This document shows, piece by piece, positions 8,281 through 53,848 of a DNA stretch of 64,000 nucleotides. This stretch comes from an uncultured SAR86 cluster bacterium (GTDB taxonomy: Bacteria > Pseudomonadota > Gammaproteobacteria > Magnimaribacterales > AG-339-G14), in assembly GCA_902587545.1 (NCBI GenBank), contig CACILL010000003.1, positions 19,006 through 83,005 on the forward strand, written 5' to 3'. The notes beneath the pieces were generated by a model that saw nothing but the letters and a program-made list of their open reading frames with translations, had not been told where the DNA came from and did no database searches. Within the stretch, counting starts at the first letter, position 1. Every line of letters begins with the position of its first letter. A program made the position numbers and the translations under genes.

Positions 8281-9532
8281 AAACTTAAAATTTATTTTTT
8301 TTCTTTTCTTCTTCCACTTTTCATGGAGTTTTTCAACAGATTTAGATAATTCTACTAGTCATTTAAAAACTATCATCTTAGGCGCAGGTTGTTTTTGGAG
8401 CGTTGAAAAGAAGTTCCAAGAAACATATGGGGTTATAGATGTTCAATCTGGATATGCAGATGGTAAAAATATAAAACCCATTTATAAGGAAATCATCAAA
8501 AGAGAAAATAGATTTAATCCAAATAATTATGCTGAAGTTGTAAAAGTGTCCTACAACAGTAACAAAACAAGCTTAGAAAATCTTTTAAAGACTTTTTTTG
8601 AAATGCATGATCCCACTCAAGAAAATCGCCAAGGGAACGACATCGGTGTTCAGTATCGTTCATTAATTTTAACTTCGTCAGATGAAGAAATTTCTATTTC
8701 TAATGAAATAAAAAATGAGTATCAAAATCTTTTAACTAAAGAAGGATTTGGATTGATCAAAACTGACATAAAAAATTTCACGAATTTCTATTTAGCAGAA
8801 AATTATCATCAAGATTATCTAAAAAAGAATCCAAATGGATATTGTCCAGATTATTCAACTGGAGTTGTTTTCTCAAAAAAACCAGAAAAATTTACAGACA
8901 ATAAGAATTTAGTAATTGGAAAAAAAATACTTATTCTTGAGGCAGAAGGCTGTCCTTATTGTTATAAATTAAGACAAAATGTTTTAAATGATTATAGAGG
9001 CTCCTTAGAAATATCTTATAGAAAATCAGATGAACTAGATAAGCTTGAGTTAAAAACACCCACTTGGGCAACTCCAACAATTTATTTTTTAGAGAATGGT
9101 AAAGAAGTTTGGTCTCATCAAGGCTATTTATCGAATGAAAAATTCTATAAATCTCTGGGAAAGTTTAAGCTAGGTAAAACAGAAGCTTATGATGTTGCCT
9201 TTAATCAAGGTACAGATCCCACATATTGCAAAGAATATGAGTTATTTAAAAATACACCAGATGGAGTTTTCATTGATAAATTAAGCGGAGCCCCACTTTT
9301 TAGTACCAAGTACCGTTTTAACTCAAAAACGGGATGGCTTTCATTTACCCAACCTGTAGAAGATTCTGTAACTGAACATATGGATTACAGTTATGGCATG
9401 GTTCGTGTTGAGATAAGATCTAAATCATCAGGCATTCATTTAGGACACGTATTCAATGATGGCCCAAATGGCAAACCAAGGTATTGTATCAATGCCACTG
9501 TGTTAGAATTCATCCCAAATTTAGACACGTAG
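8273..9532 (+). CDS. msrAB: Exported methionine sulfoxide reductase, MsrA-thioredoxin-MsrB fusion
   Basis: Signal-like N-terminus, GCFWS and AENYHQDYL (MsrA), CPYC (Trx), HLGHVFNDGP...RYCINA (MsrB). Start taken at 8273 (8264 is possible). Confidence 0.9.
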   Translation: MYKNLKFIFFLFFFHFSWSFSTDLDNSTSHLKTIILGAGCFWSVEKKFQETYGVIDVQSGYADGKNIKPIYKEIIKRENRFNPNNYAEVVKVSYNSNKTSLENLLKTFFEMHDPTQENRQGNDIGVQYRSLILTSSDEEISISNEIKNEYQNLLTKEGFGLIKTDIKNFTNFYLAENYHQDYLKKNPNGYCPDYSTGVVFSKKPEKFTDNKNLVIGKKILILEAEGCPYCYKLRQNVLNDYRGSLEISYRKSDELDKLELKTPTWATPTIYFLENGKEVWSHQGYLSNEKFYKSLGKFKLGKTEAYDVAFNQGTDPTYCKEYELFKNTPDGVFIDKLSGAPLFSTKYRFNSKTGWLSFTQPVEDSVTEHMDYSYGMVRVEIRSKSSGIHLGHVFNDGPNGKPRYCINATVLEFIPNLDT

Positions 9533-9599
9533 CTCAGTTGGTTAGAGTACTACCTTGACATGGTAGGGGTCCCCGGTTCGAATCCGGGCGTGTCTACCA
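9523..9599 (+). tRNA. tRNA-Val(GAC)
   Basis: Acceptor stem AGACACG/CGTGTCT, anticodon arm CTACC-TTGACAT-GGTAG, T arm TTCGAAT, encoded CCA. Confidence 0.97.
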
Positions 9600-39413: not shown

Positions 39414-39489
39414 GGGCGACTAACTCAATTGGTAGAGTGCCACCCTTACAAGGTGGAAGTTACAGGTTCAAGTCCTGTGTCGCCCACCA
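39414..39489 (+). tRNA. tRNA-Val(TAC)
   Basis: GGGCGAC/GTCGCCC acceptor, CCACC-CTTACAA-GGTGG anticodon arm, TTCAAGT, CCA; TATAAT at 39396. Confidence 0.97.
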
Positions 39490-39543: not shown

Positions 39544-41139
39544 GTGAACAAATACAGAAGAAAATTCCTAAAGAGTTTAGCCCTACTTTTACTTTTTCTG
39601 CCTATACGTATTTTTCCGTCATTTAATAAAGAATCGGTTATTTCTTTTAAGTATGGAGTGGCGAGTGGGGATCCTACAAATACTAATGTAATTTTATGGA
39701 CAAAAATCTTACCAATGGGTAATCCAGAAATTAGAGTTAGGTGGGAAGTTTCAAGTTCCAAGGATTTTTCAAATCTTATTACCTATGGTCATGTCAGGAC
39801 AAATTCTAAAAAAGATTATTCAGTTAAAGTTGATGCAAAAATTCCAAAAAAGTTTAATGGTGAAAAAATTTATTATAGATTTTTAGCAGATGGCAAAACC
39901 TCTGATATTGGAATGACATCAACATTACCTAGCGAAAATCCAAATAATTTTAATATCGCTTTTTGTAGCTGCTCAAATTATCCTGCAGGATATTTTAATG
40001 CTTACAAAGAAATAGCAAAAAATGAAAAAATAGACTTGGTTTTGCATCTTGGAGATTATCTCTATGAATATGGTCATGGTGGTTATGCGTCAAAGGATGC
40101 AGAACAAATGGGCAGAGTTGTAAATCCGAAACACGAAATGGTTTCATTGGATGATTATCGAAAAAGGTATGCGACATATAGGTCTGATCCCGATCTAAAA
40201 TTATTACATCAAAAAAAACCTATGATTTCTGTTTGGGATGATCATGAATTTACTAATGATAGTTGGCAAAAAGGAGCTCAAAACCATTCTAAAGATGAAG
40301 GTACATTTGCTAATAGAAAAAAGAGTGCTCTTCAAGCTTATTACGAATGGATGCCAATCCGTGAGAAAGGCAGAAAAGATAAAATTTGGAGAAATTTCAG
40401 GGTAGGAAATCTTATAAATTTGATGATGTTGGATACCAGATCATACAAAAGAGATAAACAATTAGATATAGAAAAATACTTTGACGGTAATTCTTTTAAT
40501 AAAATTTCTTATTTAAGAGATATTAATAAACCAAGAAAACTTCTTGGTAAAGAACAGTTCAACTGGATAAGAAATAAAGTAGATAGTTCTTTTAAATGGT
40601 CTATTTTTGGACAACAAATTCTAATCGGGCCAAAATATTTACCAACAATTTTTAAGGCTGTCGACAAAGAAAACTTTCCAAAATTTCTTCATAAATATCT
40701 TTCTTTAGCTGGTACTGAGATTCCTTACAATACAGATCAGTGGGATGGATATCCAAAGGAAAGGGAAAAGTTTTATAAAACTATAAGCAATTCTCAATCC
40801 AGCCTCATTCTTGCGGGTGATTCACACAATTCTTGGCTTTCAAATCTATTCGATAAAAATAATAAATTTGTTGGCGTTGAAATAGGAGCTCCTTCTATCA
40901 CATCTCCAAATTTTGTTGATACTTTTGGAGATTTTACAGAAGCATTGGATAAATCATTTATTGATTCAAATAAAGATCTTATTTGGACTAATGGAAGGAA
41001 CAAGGGTTATGTAGAGCTTAATATTTTTGCGGAATATGTAGACGTCAAATTCAATTTTGTTTCCTCGGTTAAATCTAAAAATTATAAGAATTTAAAACCC
41101 ATAACTTTTAAAGTTAATCATAGCGAAGCAATCACTTAG
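39544..41139 (+). CDS. phoD: Alkaline phosphatase D (Tat-exported)
   Basis: RRKFLK twin-arginine signal, GVASGDP, HLGDYLYE, WDDHE, LDTR, WDGY, GDSH. Confidence 0.94.
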   Translation: MNKYRRKFLKSLALLLLFLPIRIFPSFNKESVISFKYGVASGDPTNTNVILWTKILPMGNPEIRVRWEVSSSKDFSNLITYGHVRTNSKKDYSVKVDAKIPKKFNGEKIYYRFLADGKTSDIGMTSTLPSENPNNFNIAFCSCSNYPAGYFNAYKEIAKNEKIDLVLHLGDYLYEYGHGGYASKDAEQMGRVVNPKHEMVSLDDYRKRYATYRSDPDLKLLHQKKPMISVWDDHEFTNDSWQKGAQNHSKDEGTFANRKKSALQAYYEWMPIREKGRKDKIWRNFRVGNLINLMMLDTRSYKRDKQLDIEKYFDGNSFNKISYLRDINKPRKLLGKEQFNWIRNKVDSSFKWSIFGQQILIGPKYLPTIFKAVDKENFPKFLHKYLSLAGTEIPYNTDQWDGYPKEREKFYKTISNSQSSLILAGDSHNSWLSNLFDKNNKFVGVEIGAPSITSPNFVDTFGDFTEALDKSFIDSNKDLIWTNGRNKGYVELNIFAEYVDVKFNFVSSVKSKNYKNLKPITFKVNHSEAIT

Positions 41140-41207: not shown

Positions 41208-41286
41208 GGACCGGTAGTTCAGTTCTGGTTAGAACGCCGCCCTGTCACGGCGGAGGTCGCGGGTTCGAGCCCCGTCCGGTCCGCCA
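41208..41286 (+). tRNA. tRNA-Asp(GTC)
   Basis: GGACCGG/CCGGTCC acceptor, CCGCC-CTGTCAC-GGCGG, TTCGAGC, GCCA; TATAAT at 41188. Confidence 0.97.
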
Positions 41287-41293
41287 TTAAAAT

Positions 41294-41623
41294 ATGTACA
41301 TTACTGTTCTTAAATCTAAGTTACATAGAGTAAAAGTTACTTCTACAAACATTGACTACGATGGATCTTGCGGAATTGATAAGGACTGGATGGATGCTCT
41401 TGATATTAAAGAATATGAACAAGTTCATATCTATAATATTTCAAATGGAAATAGATTTGTTACCTATGCCTTTTCTGAGGATGCCGGAAGCAAAAAGATT
41501 TCTCTAAATGGCGCTGCTGCCCATAAAGCAGATACTGGAGATTTAATAATCGTATGTACTTACATGATGGGAAGTAAAGGTGATAAATTTCAAGAACCAA
41601 AAATTTTAAAAATTGAAGATTAG
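41294..41623 (+). CDS. panD: Aspartate 1-decarboxylase
   Basis: KSKLHR, YDGSCGID (Gly-Ser self-cleavage site), NGNRFVTY, LNGAAA. Confidence 0.95.
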   Translation: MYITVLKSKLHRVKVTSTNIDYDGSCGIDKDWMDALDIKEYEQVHIYNISNGNRFVTYAFSEDAGSKKISLNGAAAHKADTGDLIIVCTYMMGSKGDKFQEPKILKIED

Positions 41624-41629
41624 GAGATA

Positions 41630-42433
41630 ATGATGAAAATTGAAGATTTGTTTTCAGTAAAAGACAAGGTTGCTGTTGTCACTGGAGGATCTCGAGGGAT
41701 AGGTGAAATGATTGCATCAGCGTATCTAGCAAATGGCGCTACTGTATATATTACGTCTAGAAAGGCTGATGTTTGTGATGCAAAGGCAATAGAACTCTCA
41801 GAAAAATATAATACTCAATGTACATCTCTTCCATCTGACTTATCTTCTTTAGAAGGAATAGAGAAGTTTGTAAAAGAAGTAGAGGCGTTAGAATCTGGGA
41901 TTGATATTTTGGTAAATAATGCTGGAGCAGCATGGGCAGAACCTATAGATGTTTTCTCAGAAAAAGGCTGGGATAAGGTGATGGATCTGAATGTCAAAAG
42001 TGTATTCTTCTCTACGCAAAAGTTTCTTCCACTGTTGAAGAAAAAAGCTACAAGAGACGATCCTTCTCGGGTTATCAACATAGGTTCAATTGATGGTATT
42101 GGAACTCCTGTTTTTGAAACATACCCTTACAGTGCATCTAAAGCCTCTGTTCATCATATGACAAGAGTGCTTGCCGCAAGACTTGTTAGAGAAAACATTT
42201 TAGTGAATGCCATTGCACCAGGACCTTTTCCTAGCGATATGTTGGGTTCAGCAGTAGCTCATAACTATGATGGCATTATTTCCAGAAATCCAGTCCATAG
42301 AATGGGTAGAGCCGAAGATGTCGGCGGTTTAGCTTTATATCTTTCATCAAAGGCTGGTTCTTACACTGTAGGAGAAACCATTACTTGCGATGGCGGAACA
42401 ATCTCTGCAACTGGTCACGATTTGAGTGAATAA
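41630..42433 (+). CDS. Short-chain dehydrogenase/reductase
   Basis: TGGSRGIG, LVNNAG, YSASKA; AGGAG RBS. Confidence 0.93.
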   Translation: MMKIEDLFSVKDKVAVVTGGSRGIGEMIASAYLANGATVYITSRKADVCDAKAIELSEKYNTQCTSLPSDLSSLEGIEKFVKEVEALESGIDILVNNAGAAWAEPIDVFSEKGWDKVMDLNVKSVFFSTQKFLPLLKKKATRDDPSRVINIGSIDGIGTPVFETYPYSASKASVHHMTRVLAARLVRENILVNAIAPGPFPSDMLGSAVAHNYDGIISRNPVHRMGRAEDVGGLALYLSSKAGSYTVGETITCDGGTISATGHDLSE

Positions 42434-42460
42434 AAAAACCCCGTCATTTCTGACGGGGCT
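42432..42460 (-). terminator. Rho-independent terminator (minus strand)
   Basis: Minus strand reads CCCCGTCA-GAAA-TGACGGGG followed by T7. Confidence 0.9.
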
Positions 42461-42661
42461 TAAGAATAAGTATTTCAACTTAATTCTTACCTTAAGCGGG
42501 CGAACCGGCAAAAGGTCGGAATCGGGTTAACCCGTTGTCAAGAGGCACCCCCTGAAATTCCTGCTAATTCGTTAATACTAATTTGGACCACCTCCTTCAC
42601 AGGGTAAGAATAAAACGCACTTTACTAGGAACCCCTGATATTGAACCTAAGTGCAACACTT
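42432..42661 (-). ncRNA. Putative structured small RNA (~230 nt), family unassigned
   Basis: Largest non-tRNA intergenic gap in the window, GC-enriched, with several nested inverted repeats, TAAAAT -10 at 42673-42668 and a terminator at the 3' end. Confidence 0.65.
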
Positions 42662-42673
42662 GTATCTATTTTA

Positions 42674-44113
42674 CTACAAGACGAGAGGGTAATAAAAGAC
42701 CGATAAAAGAAGGATATATAGAAATGAAATTAAATTAATAAAAATTCCTGCTCTTACCATTTGCTGAATGGGAACTAAGTTTGAAGCAAAGACTATAGAG
42801 TTGGGAGGAGTTGCAACTGGCAACATGAAAGCACAGCTAGCAACAATTGTTAGCGGTAATGTAAGCAGCAAAGGGTTTATATCTAAATTGAAACCTACGC
42901 TAGCAATTACGGGCATAAAAGTAATTGTCGTTGTTAGATTGCTTGTTAACTCTGTAAGGAATAAGACCAACAATATAATCAAAGCAACTACTATAATGGG
43001 ATTGATATCTGCAGGTATCAAATTAGCTAACCATGAGGCAAGGCCGGTGGAATTTACTTCATAGGCTAAAGCCATACCTCCACCAAATAAAAAGATAAGC
43101 CCCCATGGAAATTTTTGTTGTAAGTCATCCCAATTAAGCAAATAATCTTCTCTATTTTTAGAACTAACAAAAAATAATGAGATGCCTCCTATCATTGCAA
43201 TAACTGCATCTTCTAAAAAATCTAATCCTGGTAAATCGTCTAATAATTTTCTAAATACCCAACAAAAGGCAGTTATTGAGAAAATTATTGCAACCATTTT
43301 TTGCTCTGAAGTAATCTTTCCTAAATCTTCAAGCATTGTTCTTAGTTTTGAATTTGTTTCCGGAGAAGCCTTAAAATTTATTGGAAAAATTAAAGAGGTT
43401 AAAATAAACCAAACAAGAGGGACCATAATTAGTGTCACAGGCAGTCCTATTGCAAGCCAACTTATGAAACCTATATCTTGATTAAAATTATCATTTGCAT
43501 ATTGAATAAGATAGCCATTTGGAGAAGTTCCAATTGGAGTAGATATTCCTCCCAGAGAAGCTGAATATGCAATTCCAAGGAGTAGAGCAAATTGAAAATT
43601 TTTACTCTCACTTGGAAGCAAATCTTTCACTGTCTCATTTATTACAGCTATGACTGACACTCCAATTGGCAAGAGCATTATTGCTGTTGAGGTATTCATT
43701 ACCCACATACTCAAAATTGCACTTGTTAGCATAAAAGCAGCCACGATATTTTTTGCCTGCATGCCACTATACTTTAGGATATTAAGCGCAATTCTTTTGT
43801 GCAAATTCCACTTTTGCATAGCAATTCCAATCATGAACCCACCAGCAAAAAGGAACTGAACTTTATTCATATATTCTCTACTGATAACTCCAATTGGATC
43901 TATTCCTAACAAAGGAAAGAAAATTAAAGGCAATAGAGCCGTTGCATAAAGTGGCATTGCTTCAGTAGCCCACCAAATTCCCATCAGTAAAAAAATAGCT
44001 GCAGTTAGCTTACCTTCGTTTGATAATCCATCTGGGACAGGCATGAAATAAATACAAACAAAAATCGCAAGTCCAATCCAAAAACCGATTTTTTTGGCAT
44101 TAAATGAATTCAT
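42674..44113 (-). CDS. SLC13/DASS family sodium:dicarboxylate/sulfate symporter
   Basis: WATEAMP, SMWVMNTST, TPIGTSPN, TELTSN, AFMLPVATPPN. Confidence 0.93.
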   Translation of the reverse strand: MNSFNAKKIGFWIGLAIFVCIYFMPVPDGLSNEGKLTAAIFLLMGIWWATEAMPLYATALLPLIFFPLLGIDPIGVISREYMNKVQFLFAGGFMIGIAMQKWNLHKRIALNILKYSGMQAKNIVAAFMLTSAILSMWVMNTSTAIMLLPIGVSVIAVINETVKDLLPSESKNFQFALLLGIAYSASLGGISTPIGTSPNGYLIQYANDNFNQDIGFISWLAIGLPVTLIMVPLVWFILTSLIFPINFKASPETNSKLRTMLEDLGKITSEQKMVAIIFSITAFCWVFRKLLDDLPGLDFLEDAVIAMIGGISLFFVSSKNREDYLLNWDDLQQKFPWGLIFLFGGGMALAYEVNSTGLASWLANLIPADINPIIVVALIILLVLFLTELTSNLTTTITFMPVIASVGFNLDINPLLLTLPLTIVASCAFMLPVATPPNSIVFASNLVPIQQMVRAGIFINLISFLYILLLSVFYYPLVL

Positions 44114-52759: not shown

Positions 52760-52836
52760 CGGGGTGTAGCGCAGTCTGGTAGCGCGCCTGCTTTGGGAGC
52801 AGGATGTCGGGGGTTCAAATCCCTCCACCCCGACCA
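52760..52836 (+). tRNA. tRNA-Pro(TGG)
   Basis: CGGGGTG/CACCCCG acceptor, CCTGC-TTTGGGA-GCAGG, TTCAAAT, ACCA. Confidence 0.97.
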
Positions 52837-53689: not shown

Positions 53690-53766
53690 CTCCCGGTAGC
53701 TCAGCTGGATAGAGCATCTGCCTTCTAAGCAGAGGGTCGCAGGTTCGAATCCTGCCCGGGAGGCCA
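53690..53766 (+). tRNA. tRNA-Arg(TCT)
   Basis: CTCCCGG/CCGGGAG acceptor, TCTGC-CTTCTAA-GCAGA, TTCGAAT, GCCA. Confidence 0.97.
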
Positions 53767-53771
53767 CTAAT

Positions 53772-53848
53772 GGTGGGCGTAGCTCAGTTGGTAGAGCACT
53801 GGTTTGTGGTACCGGTTGTCGTGGGTTCGAGCCCCATCGCCCACCCCA
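53772..53848 (+). tRNA. tRNA-His(GTG)
   Basis: G-1 plus GTGGGCG/CGCCCAC-C, CTGGT-TTGTGGT-ACCGG, TTCGAGC, CCA. Confidence 0.97.

What the first reader, a model, noticed from the sequence alone, without database searches (positions are those of the whole stretch)
42432..42673. Unannotated ~230-nt structured RNA gene between an SDR and a DASS transporter
Seen: most genes here abut or overlap, yet this 240-bp GC-enriched gap is kept. On the minus strand it has TAAAAT right after the transporter stop, then a 5' hairpin (GCACUU..AAGUGC with inner UAGG/CCUA, 42617-42654). A 9-bp long-range stem AUUCUUACC/GGUAAGAAU (42603-42611 with 42483-42491) encloses a junction of GGAAU/AUUCC, UCAGGGG-GUGC-CUCUUGA and CGGG-UUAA-CCCG. 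It ends in a GAAA-capped terminator with U7. It lacks the hallmark motifs of tRNA, SRP, tmRNA and RNase P. Known: very abundant marine structured RNAs of unknown function (IMES motifs, psRNAs) exist. Inference: an independently transcribed sRNA, either an IMES-type RNA now placed in a host genome or a new family.
Basis: partly seen in the sequence, partly recalled or inferred. Interest (0 to 1): 0.85.

Follow-up and report, generated by a model that had tools for sequence, protein, structure and literature searches.

The report
Order-wide structured RNA with perfect Shine-Dalgarno
The gap holds a real, strongly conserved small RNA gene found once per genome across an order of tiny marine bacteria; it carries an unusually long ribosome-binding sequence, and its function is still unknown.

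Summary
The 241-bp gap encodes a real minus-strand RNA of about 228 nt (roughly 42660 to 42432).

- **Known families:** No Rfam family matches it.
- **Distribution:** A covariance model of its core finds it, full length and nearly always in one copy, in 111 of 151 genomes of the order. That includes 49 of 55 high-quality genomes and 21 of 21 genera. It was found in 0 of 149 other genomes of the class.
- **Conservation:** Within the genus it is 92-93% identical, while the flanking coding DNA is 77-79% identical.
- **Supported structure:** Covariation supports a 5' hairpin whose loop forms a pseudoknot, a three-way junction, two 3' hairpins and a terminator.
- **Ribosome-like features:** Directly after the pseudoknot lies an invariant GGAGGUGRUC, 12-13 nt complementary to the organism's own 16S 3' end. 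After 2-4 more nt comes an AUU...UGA frame of exactly 14 codons in all 112 parsable sequences. It never has a canonical start codon and shows no clear synonymous bias.
- **Genomic setting:** In two families (24 of 24 loci) the RNA is the leader of an EamA-type transporter gene. In this window's family (17 of 17 loci) it stands alone.

Best guess: a ribosome-engaging regulatory RNA. It is probably the unnamed abundant ncRNA that Dupont et al. (2012) placed in SAR86.

The parts
42432..42661 (-). Whole predicted RNA, about 228 nt, from the predicted start to the end of the U run
   Evidence: Covariance-model core match (G000:C3:61520-61666, which is window 42515-42661). Terminator. RNA-library contigs end at 42657-42661.
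42668..42673 (-). -10 box TAAAAT; there is no good -35
   Evidence: A -10-like hexamer (TAAAAT, TAATAT, TATAAT, TAATCT and similar) is aligned at the same place in the 29 loci. The strict promoter scan finds no full sigma-70 match.
42617..42654 (-). P1 hairpin, with the pseudoknot 5' strand in its loop
   Evidence: RNAfold draws a hairpin over this stretch for most of the 53 distinct 5' domains listed, with very different stem sequences; for a few it prefers another fold.
42633..42637 (-). Pseudoknot 5' strand, CAGGG, in the P1 loop
   Evidence: All 5 pairs show changes on both sides, and 91.2% of cells are paired. Variants seen are CAGGG:CCCUG, AAGGG:CCCUU, GAGGG:CCCUC and CAGAG:CUCUG.
42600..42604 (-). 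Pseudoknot 3' strand, CCCUG
   Evidence: Same evidence as the 5' strand.
42585..42597 (-). AAGGAGGUGGUCC, a long Shine-Dalgarno-like sequence complementary to the 16S rRNA 3' end
   Evidence: GGAGGUGRUC is present in 54 of the 55 rows of A3. The organism's own 16S 3' end is read from the rDNA at C1:252535. GGAGGTG[AG]TC occurs only 3 times in 1.13 Mb: here, antisense to the rDNA, and at one other site.
42538..42582 (-). AUU...UGA frame of 14 codons plus the stop (ISINELAGISGGAS*)
   Evidence: The length is the same in 112 of 112 parsable sequences (54 distinct). There are no in-frame stops. The first codon is AUU in 52 and AUC in 2 distinct frames. UGA followed by C is kept in all.
42518..42561 (-). 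P3 stem GGAAU/AUUCC (42561-42557 with 42522-42518), which closes the junction
   Evidence: 98.1% of cells are paired, and 3 of 5 pairs show changes on both sides.
42538..42555 (-). P4 hairpin UCAGGGG-GUGC-CUCUUGA. Its 5' strand is a second Shine-Dalgarno-like run, and its 3' strand carries the UGA.
   Evidence: 84.9% of cells are paired, mostly through G-C to G-U changes. It does not form in the same way in families f3 and f4.
42523..42534 (-). P5 hairpin CGGG-UUAA-CCCG
   Evidence: 3 of 4 pairs show changes on both sides. 74.4% of cells are paired; it holds in f1 and f2 and differs in f3 and f4.
42489..42516 (-). P6 stem-loop (ACCUU..GC / GC..AAGGU)
   Evidence: 5 of 7 pairs show changes on both sides.
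42462..42488 (-). P7 hairpin with the conserved loop UGARAU; found only in families f1 and f2
   Evidence: 8 of 10 pairs show changes on both sides, and 87.4% of cells are paired. It is absent from the f3 and f4 sequences.
42432..42461 (-). Intrinsic terminator with a U7 run. It overlaps the stop codon of the convergent SDR by 2 nt.

Best explanation
**Shown.**
- The gap encodes a single-copy, independently transcribed structured RNA. It is specific to this order of small marine gammaproteobacteria, probably SAR86.
- From 5' to 3' it has these parts:
  - A hairpin whose loop pairs with the tail, forming an H-type pseudoknot.
  - Directly after that, a 12-13-nt sequence complementary to the 16S 3' end.
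  - After 2-4 nt more, a 14-codon AUU...UGA frame of fixed length. The frame runs into a three-way junction whose first hairpin begins with a second Shine-Dalgarno-like run.
  - Then one or two further hairpins and a terminator.

**Inferred.**
- The RNA works by docking the small ribosomal subunit on this outsized Shine-Dalgarno sequence, with the neighbouring pseudoknot setting access.
- The ribosome then either sits on the near-cognate AUU or translates the short frame. Either way it would unwind the junction.
- In families f3 and f4 this decides whether the terminator forms. The 3' strand of that terminator is the Shine-Dalgarno sequence of the EamA transporter gene, which starts 0-80 nt later. 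There the RNA is a cis leader.
- In this window's family the transporter gene is not downstream and an extra hairpin (P7) has been added. Here the RNA is a stand-alone product.
- Its effect in that setting is either to hold ribosomes and report initiation capacity, or to make a 14-residue peptide.
For: **The gene is real.**
- The covariance model finds it in 111 of 151 genomes of the order, in 49 of 55 high-quality genomes and in 21 of 21 genera. It is nearly always one full-length copy.
- It was found in 0 of 149 genomes from other families of the class.
- All 63 marine metagenome loci picked with a 22-nt pattern match the model.
- Within the genus the element is 92-93% identical, against 77-79% for 600 nt of coding DNA on either side.

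**The structure is supported.**
- Core: 87.6% of cells paired against 80.4% in shuffles. Covariation score 0.308 against 0.199, with 0 of 500 shuffles reaching it. Slid registers score 0.05-0.11.
- 3' domain: covariation 0.373 against 0.186, with 0 of 500 shuffles reaching it.
- P1 folds in most of the distinct 5' domains listed.

**The ribosome link.**
- GGAGGUGRUC is invariant, and it is a perfect 13-mer, AAGGAGGUGAUCC, in f4.
- It matches the organism's own 16S 3' end and is almost unique in the genome.
- The gap from that sequence to AUU is 2-4 nt in all sequences.
- The frame has a constant length, even where a neighbouring +1 and -1 indel pair shifts the second Shine-Dalgarno-like run (L097, L098, L103).
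- Stop triplets occur at 12 positions in the other two frames and at none in this frame.

**The cis setting.**
- In 24 of 24 f3 and f4 loci a homologous gene follows. Four of these were checked with Pfam and are EamA. In f4 the start codon lies 0-4 nt after the U run.
- In most f3 and f4 sequences the terminator's 3' strand is purine-rich and Shine-Dalgarno-like: AAGAGG-type in f4, and GGGGG, GAGGG or GGAGG in several f3.

**Classical chaperones are missing.**
- Hfq was found in 0 of 61 genomes.
- CsrA was found in 0 of 16 f3 and f4 genomes, although these carry the RNA.
Against: - No AUG, GUG or UUG start occurs in any of the 54 distinct frames.
- Third-position changes number 84, against 65 and 66 at positions 1 and 2. 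My own rough chi-square gives p of about 0.2, which is not significant.
- The synonymous fraction is 0.32, against 0.17 and 0.29 in the two control frames.
- The AGU codon never varies synonymously, and the GGA codon is GGA in 52 of 54 distinct frames (GAA in 2). This points to constraint on the RNA rather than on a protein.
- The peptide itself is poorly conserved.
- No ribosome binding, toeprint or translation data exist.
- In this window there is no downstream gene to regulate, so the cis mechanism cannot apply here.
- No antiterminator pairing was demonstrated.
- One RNA-library contig (run X5) bridges the transporter and the element, so read-through from the transporter is not excluded.
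- The strict promoter scan finds no full sigma-70 site.
Confidence: 0.45

Rival explanations
1. A metabolite riboswitch. The pseudoknot domain would be an aptamer that gates the Shine-Dalgarno sequence and the terminator of the EamA exporter gene. The copies in f1 and f2 would be orphaned riboswitches kept for a trans role.
For: An H-type pseudoknot abuts a Shine-Dalgarno sequence. The terminator lies directly before an EamA-type transporter in 24 of 24 f3 and f4 loci, and that gene's Shine-Dalgarno sequence lies inside the terminator stem. From my own knowledge, exporters of this superfamily are common riboswitch targets.
Against: No Rfam riboswitch model matches the window at E up to 10, or 10 representative loci at E up to 0.1. 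The most conserved letters are the Shine-Dalgarno sequence and the AUUAGUAUU that follows it, not the pseudoknot loop or linker. In 17 of 17 f1 loci there is no gene downstream, yet the RNA evolves more slowly than the coding DNA beside it.
Confidence: 0.17
2. A trans-acting base-pairing sRNA. Its conserved single-stranded stretch (the Shine-Dalgarno-like run plus AUUAGUAUUAA) or its P7 loop would serve as a seed against mRNAs. The open frame would be incidental.
For: It has its own promoter and terminator. In f1, and in at least 5 of 13 f2 loci, no gene follows on the same strand. It has a long conserved unpaired segment and a conserved P7 loop. It was found in RNA libraries of 9 studies.
Against: Hfq was not found in 0 of 61 genomes. 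A seed identical to a Shine-Dalgarno sequence would pair with the 16S rRNA of every ribosome before it met any mRNA. This idea does not explain the exact length conservation of the frame or its compensated indels. No target search was made.
Confidence: 0.17
3. An mRNA for a functional 14-residue micropeptide, started at AUU.
For: The Shine-Dalgarno sequence sits at ideal spacing. The frame is open in 112 of 112 sequences, has constant length and keeps a conserved UGA. Gly is kept at positions 8 and 11.
Against: There is never a canonical start codon. The peptide is variable at most positions. There is no clear excess of synonymous changes, and the conserved codons do not vary synonymously. About 180 nt of covarying structure would be unnecessary for a peptide mRNA.
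Confidence: 0.08
4. A CsrA/RsmA-titrating RNA of the CsrB/RsmY/RsmZ kind.
For: It has four conserved GGA- or GGG-containing motifs. CsrA is present in f1 (32 of 36) and f2 (8 of 8).
Against: The RNA is present in f3 and f4 genomes, where CsrA was found in 0 of 16. Two of the motifs lie in covarying stems. RsmY hits only a terminator, at 24.1 bits against a gathering score of 57.
Confidence: 0.04
5. No separate gene: only the 3' UTR of the DASS transporter plus a bidirectional terminator shared with the SDR.
For: One RNA-library contig (X5, 1681 nt) spans the transporter and the gap. The terminator overlaps the SDR stop codon. There is no full sigma-70 promoter match.
Against: The same RNA lies downstream of unrelated genes in other families, including TonB-dependent receptors, a beta-lactamase-family protein, an SDR and an oxidoreductase. 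The -10 box is kept in the same place in each. Contigs of three studies end at the predicted start.
Confidence: 0.04

Closest known systems
Unnamed abundant marine ncRNA placed in SAR86 genomes by Dupont et al. 2012 (PMC3358033; a psRNA group of Shi et al. 2009)
   Same: That RNA is a small RNA seen in marine metatranscriptomes, lying in a SAR86 region with glycolysis and glucose-uptake genes. In genome G043 our element sits between pyruvate kinase, an MFS sugar transporter and an oxidoreductase on one side and a GH3 glucosidase and a second MFS sugar transporter on the other.
   Different: Identity could not be checked. In the sections I read (16 and 20) and in keyword searches of the text, that paper gives no structure, family range or mechanism. 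In this window the neighbours are not glycolytic genes.
H-type pseudoknot riboswitches that gate a Shine-Dalgarno sequence (SAM-II, SAM-V, preQ1-II; named from my own knowledge)
   Same: A hairpin loop pairs with the 3' tail right next to a Shine-Dalgarno sequence. In f3 and f4 it lies upstream of a transporter gene.
   Different: No model matches. The Shine-Dalgarno sequence serves a 14-codon frame rather than the transporter gene. About 120-150 nt of further conserved structure follows. The RNA stands alone in two families.
Leader-peptide attenuators and arrest-peptide leaders (the pheL, thrL, tnaC kind; named from my own knowledge)
   Same: A short frame with a strong Shine-Dalgarno sequence is followed by hairpins and a terminator ahead of a regulated gene, as in f3 and f4. 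The Rfam Phe_leader model gives sub-threshold hits of 21.3 and 33.9 bits against a gathering score of 55.
   Different: There is never an AUG, and there is no run of regulatory codons. The peptide is not conserved. The frame lies inside a covarying junction. In f1 no gene follows.
prfB-type +1 frameshift cassette and the AUU start of infC (both from my own knowledge)
   Same: An internal Shine-Dalgarno-like run lies a few nt before a codon followed by UGA-C. The frame has a near-cognate AUU start, the kind of start that is sensitive to initiation fidelity.
   Different: The codon before UGA is not conserved or slippery (UCU, UUC, AUC, UGC, UAC, UUU). The +1 frame downstream is not conserved, running 3 to about 21 codons by my reading. 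No release-factor or initiation-factor gene is attached.
Dual-function sRNAs such as SgrS/SgrT (from my own knowledge)
   Same: An sRNA of about 200 nt with its own terminator that also carries a small frame.
   Different: This frame is far shorter and starts at AUU. Hfq was not found in the order. No seed or target is known.

Membership tests
IMES-1 to IMES-4 (Rfam) | A match to the family covariance model | tested here: not met
   No IMES match at the gathering score over the whole window. None at E up to 10 on 42380-42720. None at E up to 0.1 on 10 homologous loci.
6S RNA (RF00013) | A match to the model: a long closed helix with a central bubble | tested here: not met
   No hit on the element. 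The genome's best 6S candidate lies elsewhere, at C1:281325-281496, scoring 41.4 bits against a cut-off of 46.4.
SRP RNA (RF00169, RF01854) | A match to the model (the domain IV motif) | tested here: not met
   No hit on the element. RF00169 was found in 0 of 61 genomes and in 0 of 5 at E up to 10. RF01854 was found in 0 of 5.
SRP RNA (RF00169, RF01854) | The partner protein Ffh is present | tested here: not met
   PF02978 was found in 0 of 5 genomes. PF00448 gave no full-length match in 61 genomes, only 6 partial P-loop hits of 18-24 bits.
CsrB/RsmY/RsmZ-type CsrA sponges | Several exposed GGA motifs | tested here: inconclusive
   Four GGA- or GGG-containing motifs are conserved, but two of them lie inside covarying helices, the pseudoknot and P3.
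CsrB/RsmY/RsmZ-type CsrA sponges | CsrA is present wherever the RNA is | tested here: not met
   CsrA was found in 0 of 8 f3 and 0 of 8 f4 genomes. The RNA was found in 36 of 40 f3 and 12 of 30 f4 genomes.
Leader-peptide transcription attenuator | A short frame with a Shine-Dalgarno sequence and a canonical start codon | tested here: not met
   The Shine-Dalgarno sequence is present, but the start is AUU in 52 and AUC in 2 of 54 distinct frames.
Leader-peptide transcription attenuator | It lies upstream of the regulated gene, with a terminator between them | tested here: inconclusive
   Met in 24 of 24 f3 and f4 loci. Not met in 17 of 17 f1 loci, this window included, where a convergent SDR follows.
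Leader-peptide transcription attenuator | Mutually exclusive terminator and antiterminator pairings | not tested
   I only noted by eye that the Shine-Dalgarno-like runs could pair with the CU-rich 5' strand of the f3 and f4 terminators. No covariation test was made.
H-type pseudoknot riboswitch gating a Shine-Dalgarno sequence | A pseudoknot whose 3' strand abuts the Shine-Dalgarno sequence | tested here: met
   All 5 pseudoknot pairs show changes on both sides. The 3' strand ends 2-3 nt before AAGGAGG.
H-type pseudoknot riboswitch gating a Shine-Dalgarno sequence | A specific ligand is bound | not testable with these tools
   This needs in-line probing or ITC.
prfB-type +1 frameshift site | A conserved slippery codon before UGA and a conserved +1 frame after it | tested here: not met
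   Six different codons precede UGA. The +1 frames run from 3 to about 21 codons and are not alike, by my reading.
SAR86 ncRNA of Dupont et al. 2012 / Shi et al. 2009 | It lies in a sugar-uptake and glycolysis region of a SAR86 genome and is seen in marine RNA libraries | tested here: met
   In G043 pyruvate kinase and an MFS sugar transporter lie within 5 kb. Fourteen RNA runs from 9 studies hold at least 0.80 of the sampled words.
SAR86 ncRNA of Dupont et al. 2012 / Shi et al. 2009 | The sequence equals the one they published | not testable with these tools

The most novel reading that the evidence does not exclude
The RNA is a decoy for the small ribosomal subunit, playing for the ribosome the part that 6S RNA plays for RNA polymerase. 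A 12-13-nt duplex with the 16S 3' end, plus a near-cognate AUU in the P site, would park 30S subunits or initiation complexes on a non-productive mini-cistron. The pseudoknot would set how many are parked. This would give a streamlined order with no detectable Hfq or SRP, and without CsrA in two of its families, a global dial on translation initiation. In two families the dial would also be wired to an exporter gene.
Probability: 0.12. Interest if true: 0.9.

Novelty: new variant of a known kind. Interest (0 to 1): 0.62.

Why it matters
The carriers appear to be SAR86-type bacteria, among the most abundant heterotrophs of the surface ocean and still little studied in culture. Their genomes are pared down.

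Against that background, an RNA gene kept in one copy in nearly every genome, and evolving more slowly than its protein-coding neighbours, is likely to be a central regulator. Its design is not described for any Rfam family. It combines a pseudoknot, the longest anti-16S sequence in the genome, and a fixed-length frame without a normal start codon.

The RNA also offers a ready comparison. In two families it is a cis leader of an exporter gene, and in two others it stands alone. It would also give a structure and a family to an abundant metatranscriptome RNA that has lacked both since 2009.

Tried and rejected
- **SRP RNA in disguise.** I considered this because RF00169 finds nothing in the order. 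I rejected it because the element gives no SRP-model hit, and because Ffh and FtsY are also not found. My regex hunt for an SRP domain IV-like motif in the own genome gave only noise.
- **6S RNA.** A separate candidate lies elsewhere in the genome.
- **CsrA sponge.** Rejected on the distribution of CsrA.
- **prfB-like frameshift.** The slippery codon and the +1 frame are not conserved.
- **Start at the GUG inside GGAGGUG.** Rejected because 1-2-nt indels in the spacer put that GUG out of frame in other genera.
- **Pho regulation.** A PhoD gene lies 1.3 kb away here, and PhoA or PhoX genes follow the RNA in six f2 loci. I saw no shared upstream motif by eye and ran no motif search, so this is left as a note.
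- **Link to infC.** The own infC appears to have an ordinary AUG (read by eye), so nothing came of this.
- **Placing the element by zwf.** I tried to place it relative to zwf so as to match Dupont's Figure 5. G6PD_N was found in 0 of 5 genomes, so this was uninformative.
- **First metagenome pattern.** The pattern with gaps found nothing, and I then used a simpler one.
- **Depth figures from read laying.** They are per contig and cannot rank expression, so they were not used. Parts without cover were not used either.
- **Organism name.** The record titles of the closest genomes say only "Gammaproteobacteria bacterium". The SAR86 label is therefore an inference, drawn from genome size, marine metagenome contigs, the missing SRP proteins and the region described by Dupont et al.
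- **Literature searches** for SAR86 with "signal recognition particle", "small RNA", "riboswitch", "sRNA", and for "psRNA". Only Dupont et al. was relevant. I read its sections 16 and 20 and passages found by search. I read passages only of PMC8049014, PMC13414033 and PMC8321541, and they add nothing.
- **Rows dropped.**
  - In the frame statistics, 6 of 118 aligned rows were dropped. They were truncated matches, one row with an N, and the weak partial hit L115.
  - Alignments A1 and A2 left out near-identical genus-mates on purpose.
  - One search used 55 of the loci then held, about one per species.
Full report
**What is in the window.** The gap 42434-42673 lies between two convergent genes. 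One is an SDR-family dehydrogenase on the + strand (41630-42433). The other is a DASS-family sodium-coupled anion symporter on the - strand (42674-44113). Nearby genes abut or overlap, and the other gaps over 150 bp hold tRNAs.
- TAAAAT directly after the transporter's stop codon.
- A hairpin at 42654-42617.
- A GGAAU/AUUCC stem enclosing two small hairpins.
- A GAAA-looped terminator with a U run, which the terminator scan also finds.

GC is 0.42-0.435 in the gap, against 0.33-0.375 in the transporter. Folding one sequence is only mildly better than chance on either strand (z -2.29 and -2.10). The case therefore rests on comparison with relatives.

**Not a known family.** Rfam 15 gives only tRNAs in the window at gathering scores. 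On 42380-42720 at E up to 10 it gives nothing beyond terminator-driven noise, the best being Phe_leader at 21.3 bits against 55. Ten homologous loci from all four families likewise give only tRNAs and sub-threshold noise. The genome has RNase P and tmRNA, and a near-threshold 6S candidate elsewhere.

**Distribution.**
- A DNA search found the element in 37 of 61 related genomes. The central 100 nt were 73-83% identical across families.
- A covariance model of the 149-position core finds full-length matches in 111 of 151 genomes of the order. That is 49 of 55 high-quality genomes and 21 of 21 genera.
- By family the counts are f1 31 of 40, f2 31 of 40, f3 36 of 40 and f4 12 of 30. The strict filters and the divergence of f4 probably cost matches there.
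- Almost every genome has one copy. G058 has two, and G138 has one plus a fragment.
- In 149 genomes from other families of the class there is no match at E up to 0.01.
- A 22-nt pattern pulled 63 marine metagenome contigs, and all 63 match the model.
- Within the genus the element is 92-93% identical, where 600 nt of coding DNA on either side is 77-79% identical. Against another genus it is 80%, against 65-73% for the flanks.

**Organism.** Record titles of the nearest genomes say only "Gammaproteobacteria bacterium". Calling the order SAR86 is my inference, from the evidence in the section on the earlier literature below.

**Transcription.**
- A -10-like hexamer is aligned 7-9 nt before the conserved start (GUGUYGC and the like) in the 29 loci compared, whatever the upstream gene. 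The -35 is weak, and the strict promoter scan finds no full site here.
- Fourteen RNA runs from 9 studies hold 0.80-0.83 of the sampled words of 42400-42700.
- Laying contigs from four of those runs gave three pieces that end at 42659 (X1), 42661 (X2) and 42657 (X6, with 28 loose letters). These ends are 7-11 nt past the -10 box. One X5 contig of 1681 nt bridges into the transporter.
- Contigs show neither strand nor level, and RNA libraries can hold DNA, so this is only a weak hint. The terminator and its U run are kept in all aligned sequences.

**Structure.**
- *Core.* On the model-fitted alignment of 54 distinct sequences, 87.6% of cells pair against 80.4% in shuffles. The covariation score is 0.308 against 0.199, with 0 of 500 shuffles reaching it. 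Registers slid by 1-3 columns score 0.05-0.11. An alignment fitted to a model leans towards that model.
- *Pseudoknot.* RNAalifold found the pseudoknot helix on its own, on a plain MAFFT alignment. The helix joins the loop of the 5' hairpin to the tail, and all 5 of its pairs change on both sides. The variants are CAGGG:CCCUG in f1, AAGGG:CCCUU and GAGGG:CCCUC in f2, and CAGAG:CUCUG in f4.
- *5' hairpin.* RNAfold draws the hairpin for most of the 53 distinct 5' domains listed, with stems that share almost no sequence.
- *Junction.* The GGAAU/AUUCC stem pairs in 98.1% of cells, and 3 of its 5 pairs change on both sides. The two hairpins inside it hold in f1 and f2 and are rebuilt in f3 and f4.
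- *3' domain.* In f1 and f2 the 3' half adds a stem-loop and a hairpin with the conserved loop UGARAU. Covariation there is 0.373 against 0.186, with 0 of 500 shuffles reaching it.
It pairs in 59.1% of cells against 57.2% in shuffles (88 of 500 reach it), and slid registers do as well. It also competes with the pseudoknot and both 3' hairpins.

**The unusual part.**
- *Anti-16S sequence.* Two to three nt after the pseudoknot comes GGAGGUGRUC. It is invariant, and in f4 it extends to AAGGAGGUGAUCC. The own 16S gene ends in the exact complement. GGAGGTG[AG]TC occurs only three times in 1.13 Mb: here, antisense to the rDNA, and at one other place.
- *Fixed frame.* After 2-4 more nt comes AUUAGUAUU, and from that AUU a frame of exactly 14 codons runs to a UGA followed by C. 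This holds in all 112 sequences that could be parsed out of 118, giving 54 distinct frames.
- *Signs that the frame is kept.* No in-frame stop occurs, while stop triplets sit at 12 positions in the other two frames. Where the second Shine-Dalgarno-like run is shifted by one nt (L097, L098, L103), a nearby opposite indel restores the length. These features suggest a translated mini-cistron.
- *Signs against translation.* The first codon is AUU in 52 and AUC in 2 distinct frames, and never AUG, GUG or UUG. Along a minimum spanning tree, third positions change 84 times against 65 and 66, which is not significant by my rough chi-square. The synonymous fraction is 0.32, against 0.17 and 0.29 in the shifted frames. 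AGU never varies synonymously, GGA is kept in 52 of 54 distinct frames, and the peptide varies at most positions.

My reading is that the ribosome-binding sequence is under selection as such. Whether the frame is translated or only measured out remains open.

**Genomic setting.**
- In 17 of 17 f1 loci (four genera) the terminator overlaps the stop codon of the convergent SDR. Nothing can be regulated downstream.
- In 24 of 24 f3 and f4 loci a homologous gene of about 285 residues follows on the same strand. Four of these were checked and are EamA (Pfam). NCBIfam places them only loosely among drug/metabolite transporters.
- In f4 the start codon of that gene lies 0-4 nt after the U run. In most f3 and f4 sequences the terminator's 3' strand is purine-rich and Shine-Dalgarno-like: AAGAGG-type in f4, and GGGGG, GAGGG or GGAGG in several f3. 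The terminator therefore hides that gene's own ribosome-binding site. There the RNA is a 5' leader.
- In f2 the RNA precedes PhoA-type (5 loci) or PhoX (1 locus) phosphatases, PanB, or an unknown ORF at 32-136 nt. In 5 other f2 loci it faces a small convergent ORF.

**Partners that are missing.**
- Hfq was found in 0 of 61 genomes.
- CsrA is present in f1 (32 of 36) and f2 (8 of 8), but in 0 of 16 f3 and f4 genomes, which nevertheless carry the RNA.

This argues against both an Hfq-type sRNA and a CsrA sponge. It leaves the ribosome as the one partner for which the sequence itself gives evidence.

**Mechanism proposed (inferred).** The pseudoknot sets access to the outsized Shine-Dalgarno sequence. 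A docked subunit places the AUU in the P site. From there it either stays or reads 14 codons into the junction, opening P3-P5. In f3 and f4 that would bias the choice between the terminator and read-through into the exporter gene. In f1 and f2, this window included, the RNA ends at its terminator and acts as a free molecule. None of these steps was tested.

**Earlier literature.** Dupont et al. 2012 (sections 16 and 20 read) report two relevant things about the four SAR86 assemblies. They lack the signal recognition protein and its docking protein. A region with glycolysis and glucose-uptake genes holds "an abundant non-coding RNA" known from the marine metatranscriptomes of Shi et al. 2009. 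In the single-contig genome G043 our element lies between pyruvate kinase, an MFS sugar transporter and an oxidoreductase on one side, and a GH3 glucosidase and another MFS sugar transporter on the other. I therefore think it is probably that RNA. I could not compare sequences, because their alignment is in a closed supplement and Shi et al. is not held. My searches found no paper that gives this RNA a structure, a family or a mechanism. They cover only the held library.

**Verdict.** The gene is real, is order-specific, and is more conserved than its neighbouring genes. The mechanism is a reasoned guess, to which I give 0.45.

Noticed in passing
Whole genome G000 and 60 relatives: The SRP pathway was not found in this order. 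SRP RNA RF00169 was found in 0 of 61 genomes, and in 0 of 5 at E up to 10. RF01854 was found in 0 of 5, and the Ffh M domain in 0 of 5. The SRP54-type GTPase domain gave no full-length match in 61 genomes, only 6 partial hits of 18-24 bits. Controls ring in 12-14 of 14 genomes, and a P-loop regex on the own genome agrees. Dupont et al. 2012 noted the missing proteins tentatively. Four of the genomes here are single contigs that are 93-97% complete.
   Followed up: partly
61 genomes of the order: IF3 (58 of 61) and PheS (58 of 61; 37 of 37 high-quality genomes each) are present. Their reported absence from the 2012 SAR86 assemblies was therefore probably an assembly gap, unlike the SRP loss.
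   Followed up: yes
61 genomes of the order: Hfq was found in 0 of 61 genomes. CsrA is present in families f1 (32 of 36) and f2 (8 of 8) but in 0 of 16 genomes of f3 and f4. The same split separates RNAs with the P7 hairpin (f1, f2) from those without it (f3, f4).
   Followed up: partly
G000:C1:281325-281496 (- strand), outside the window: A likely 6S RNA just under the Rfam cut-off, at 41.4 bits against 46.4 (E 2.5e-7).
   Followed up: no
Window 39544-41139 (+); loci L025, L028, L077, L085, L111, L045: Phosphatases of three unrelated families keep turning up beside the RNA. PhoD lies 1.3 kb away here. PhoA-type genes (5 loci) and PhoX (1 locus) lie directly downstream in f2. This hints at a possible phosphate-stress link. 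No shared upstream motif was seen by eye.
   Followed up: partly
Window 41208-41283, 41294-41623; locus L030: The tRNA, panD, SDR and RNA order seen here is echoed in one f2 genome, where an SDR precedes the RNA and panB follows it. This looks like a remnant of shared gene order.
   Followed up: no
G058:C51:8071-8216 and G058:C8:25875-26017; G138:C7:3764-3861: One genome carries two full copies of the RNA in different settings: an unknown 150-residue ORF follows one copy and PhoX follows the other. Another genome has a weak partial second copy at 34 bits.
   Followed up: no
Window 9523-9596, 39414-39486, 52760-52833, 53690-53763, 53773-53845: Five further tRNA genes are in the window.
   Followed up: no
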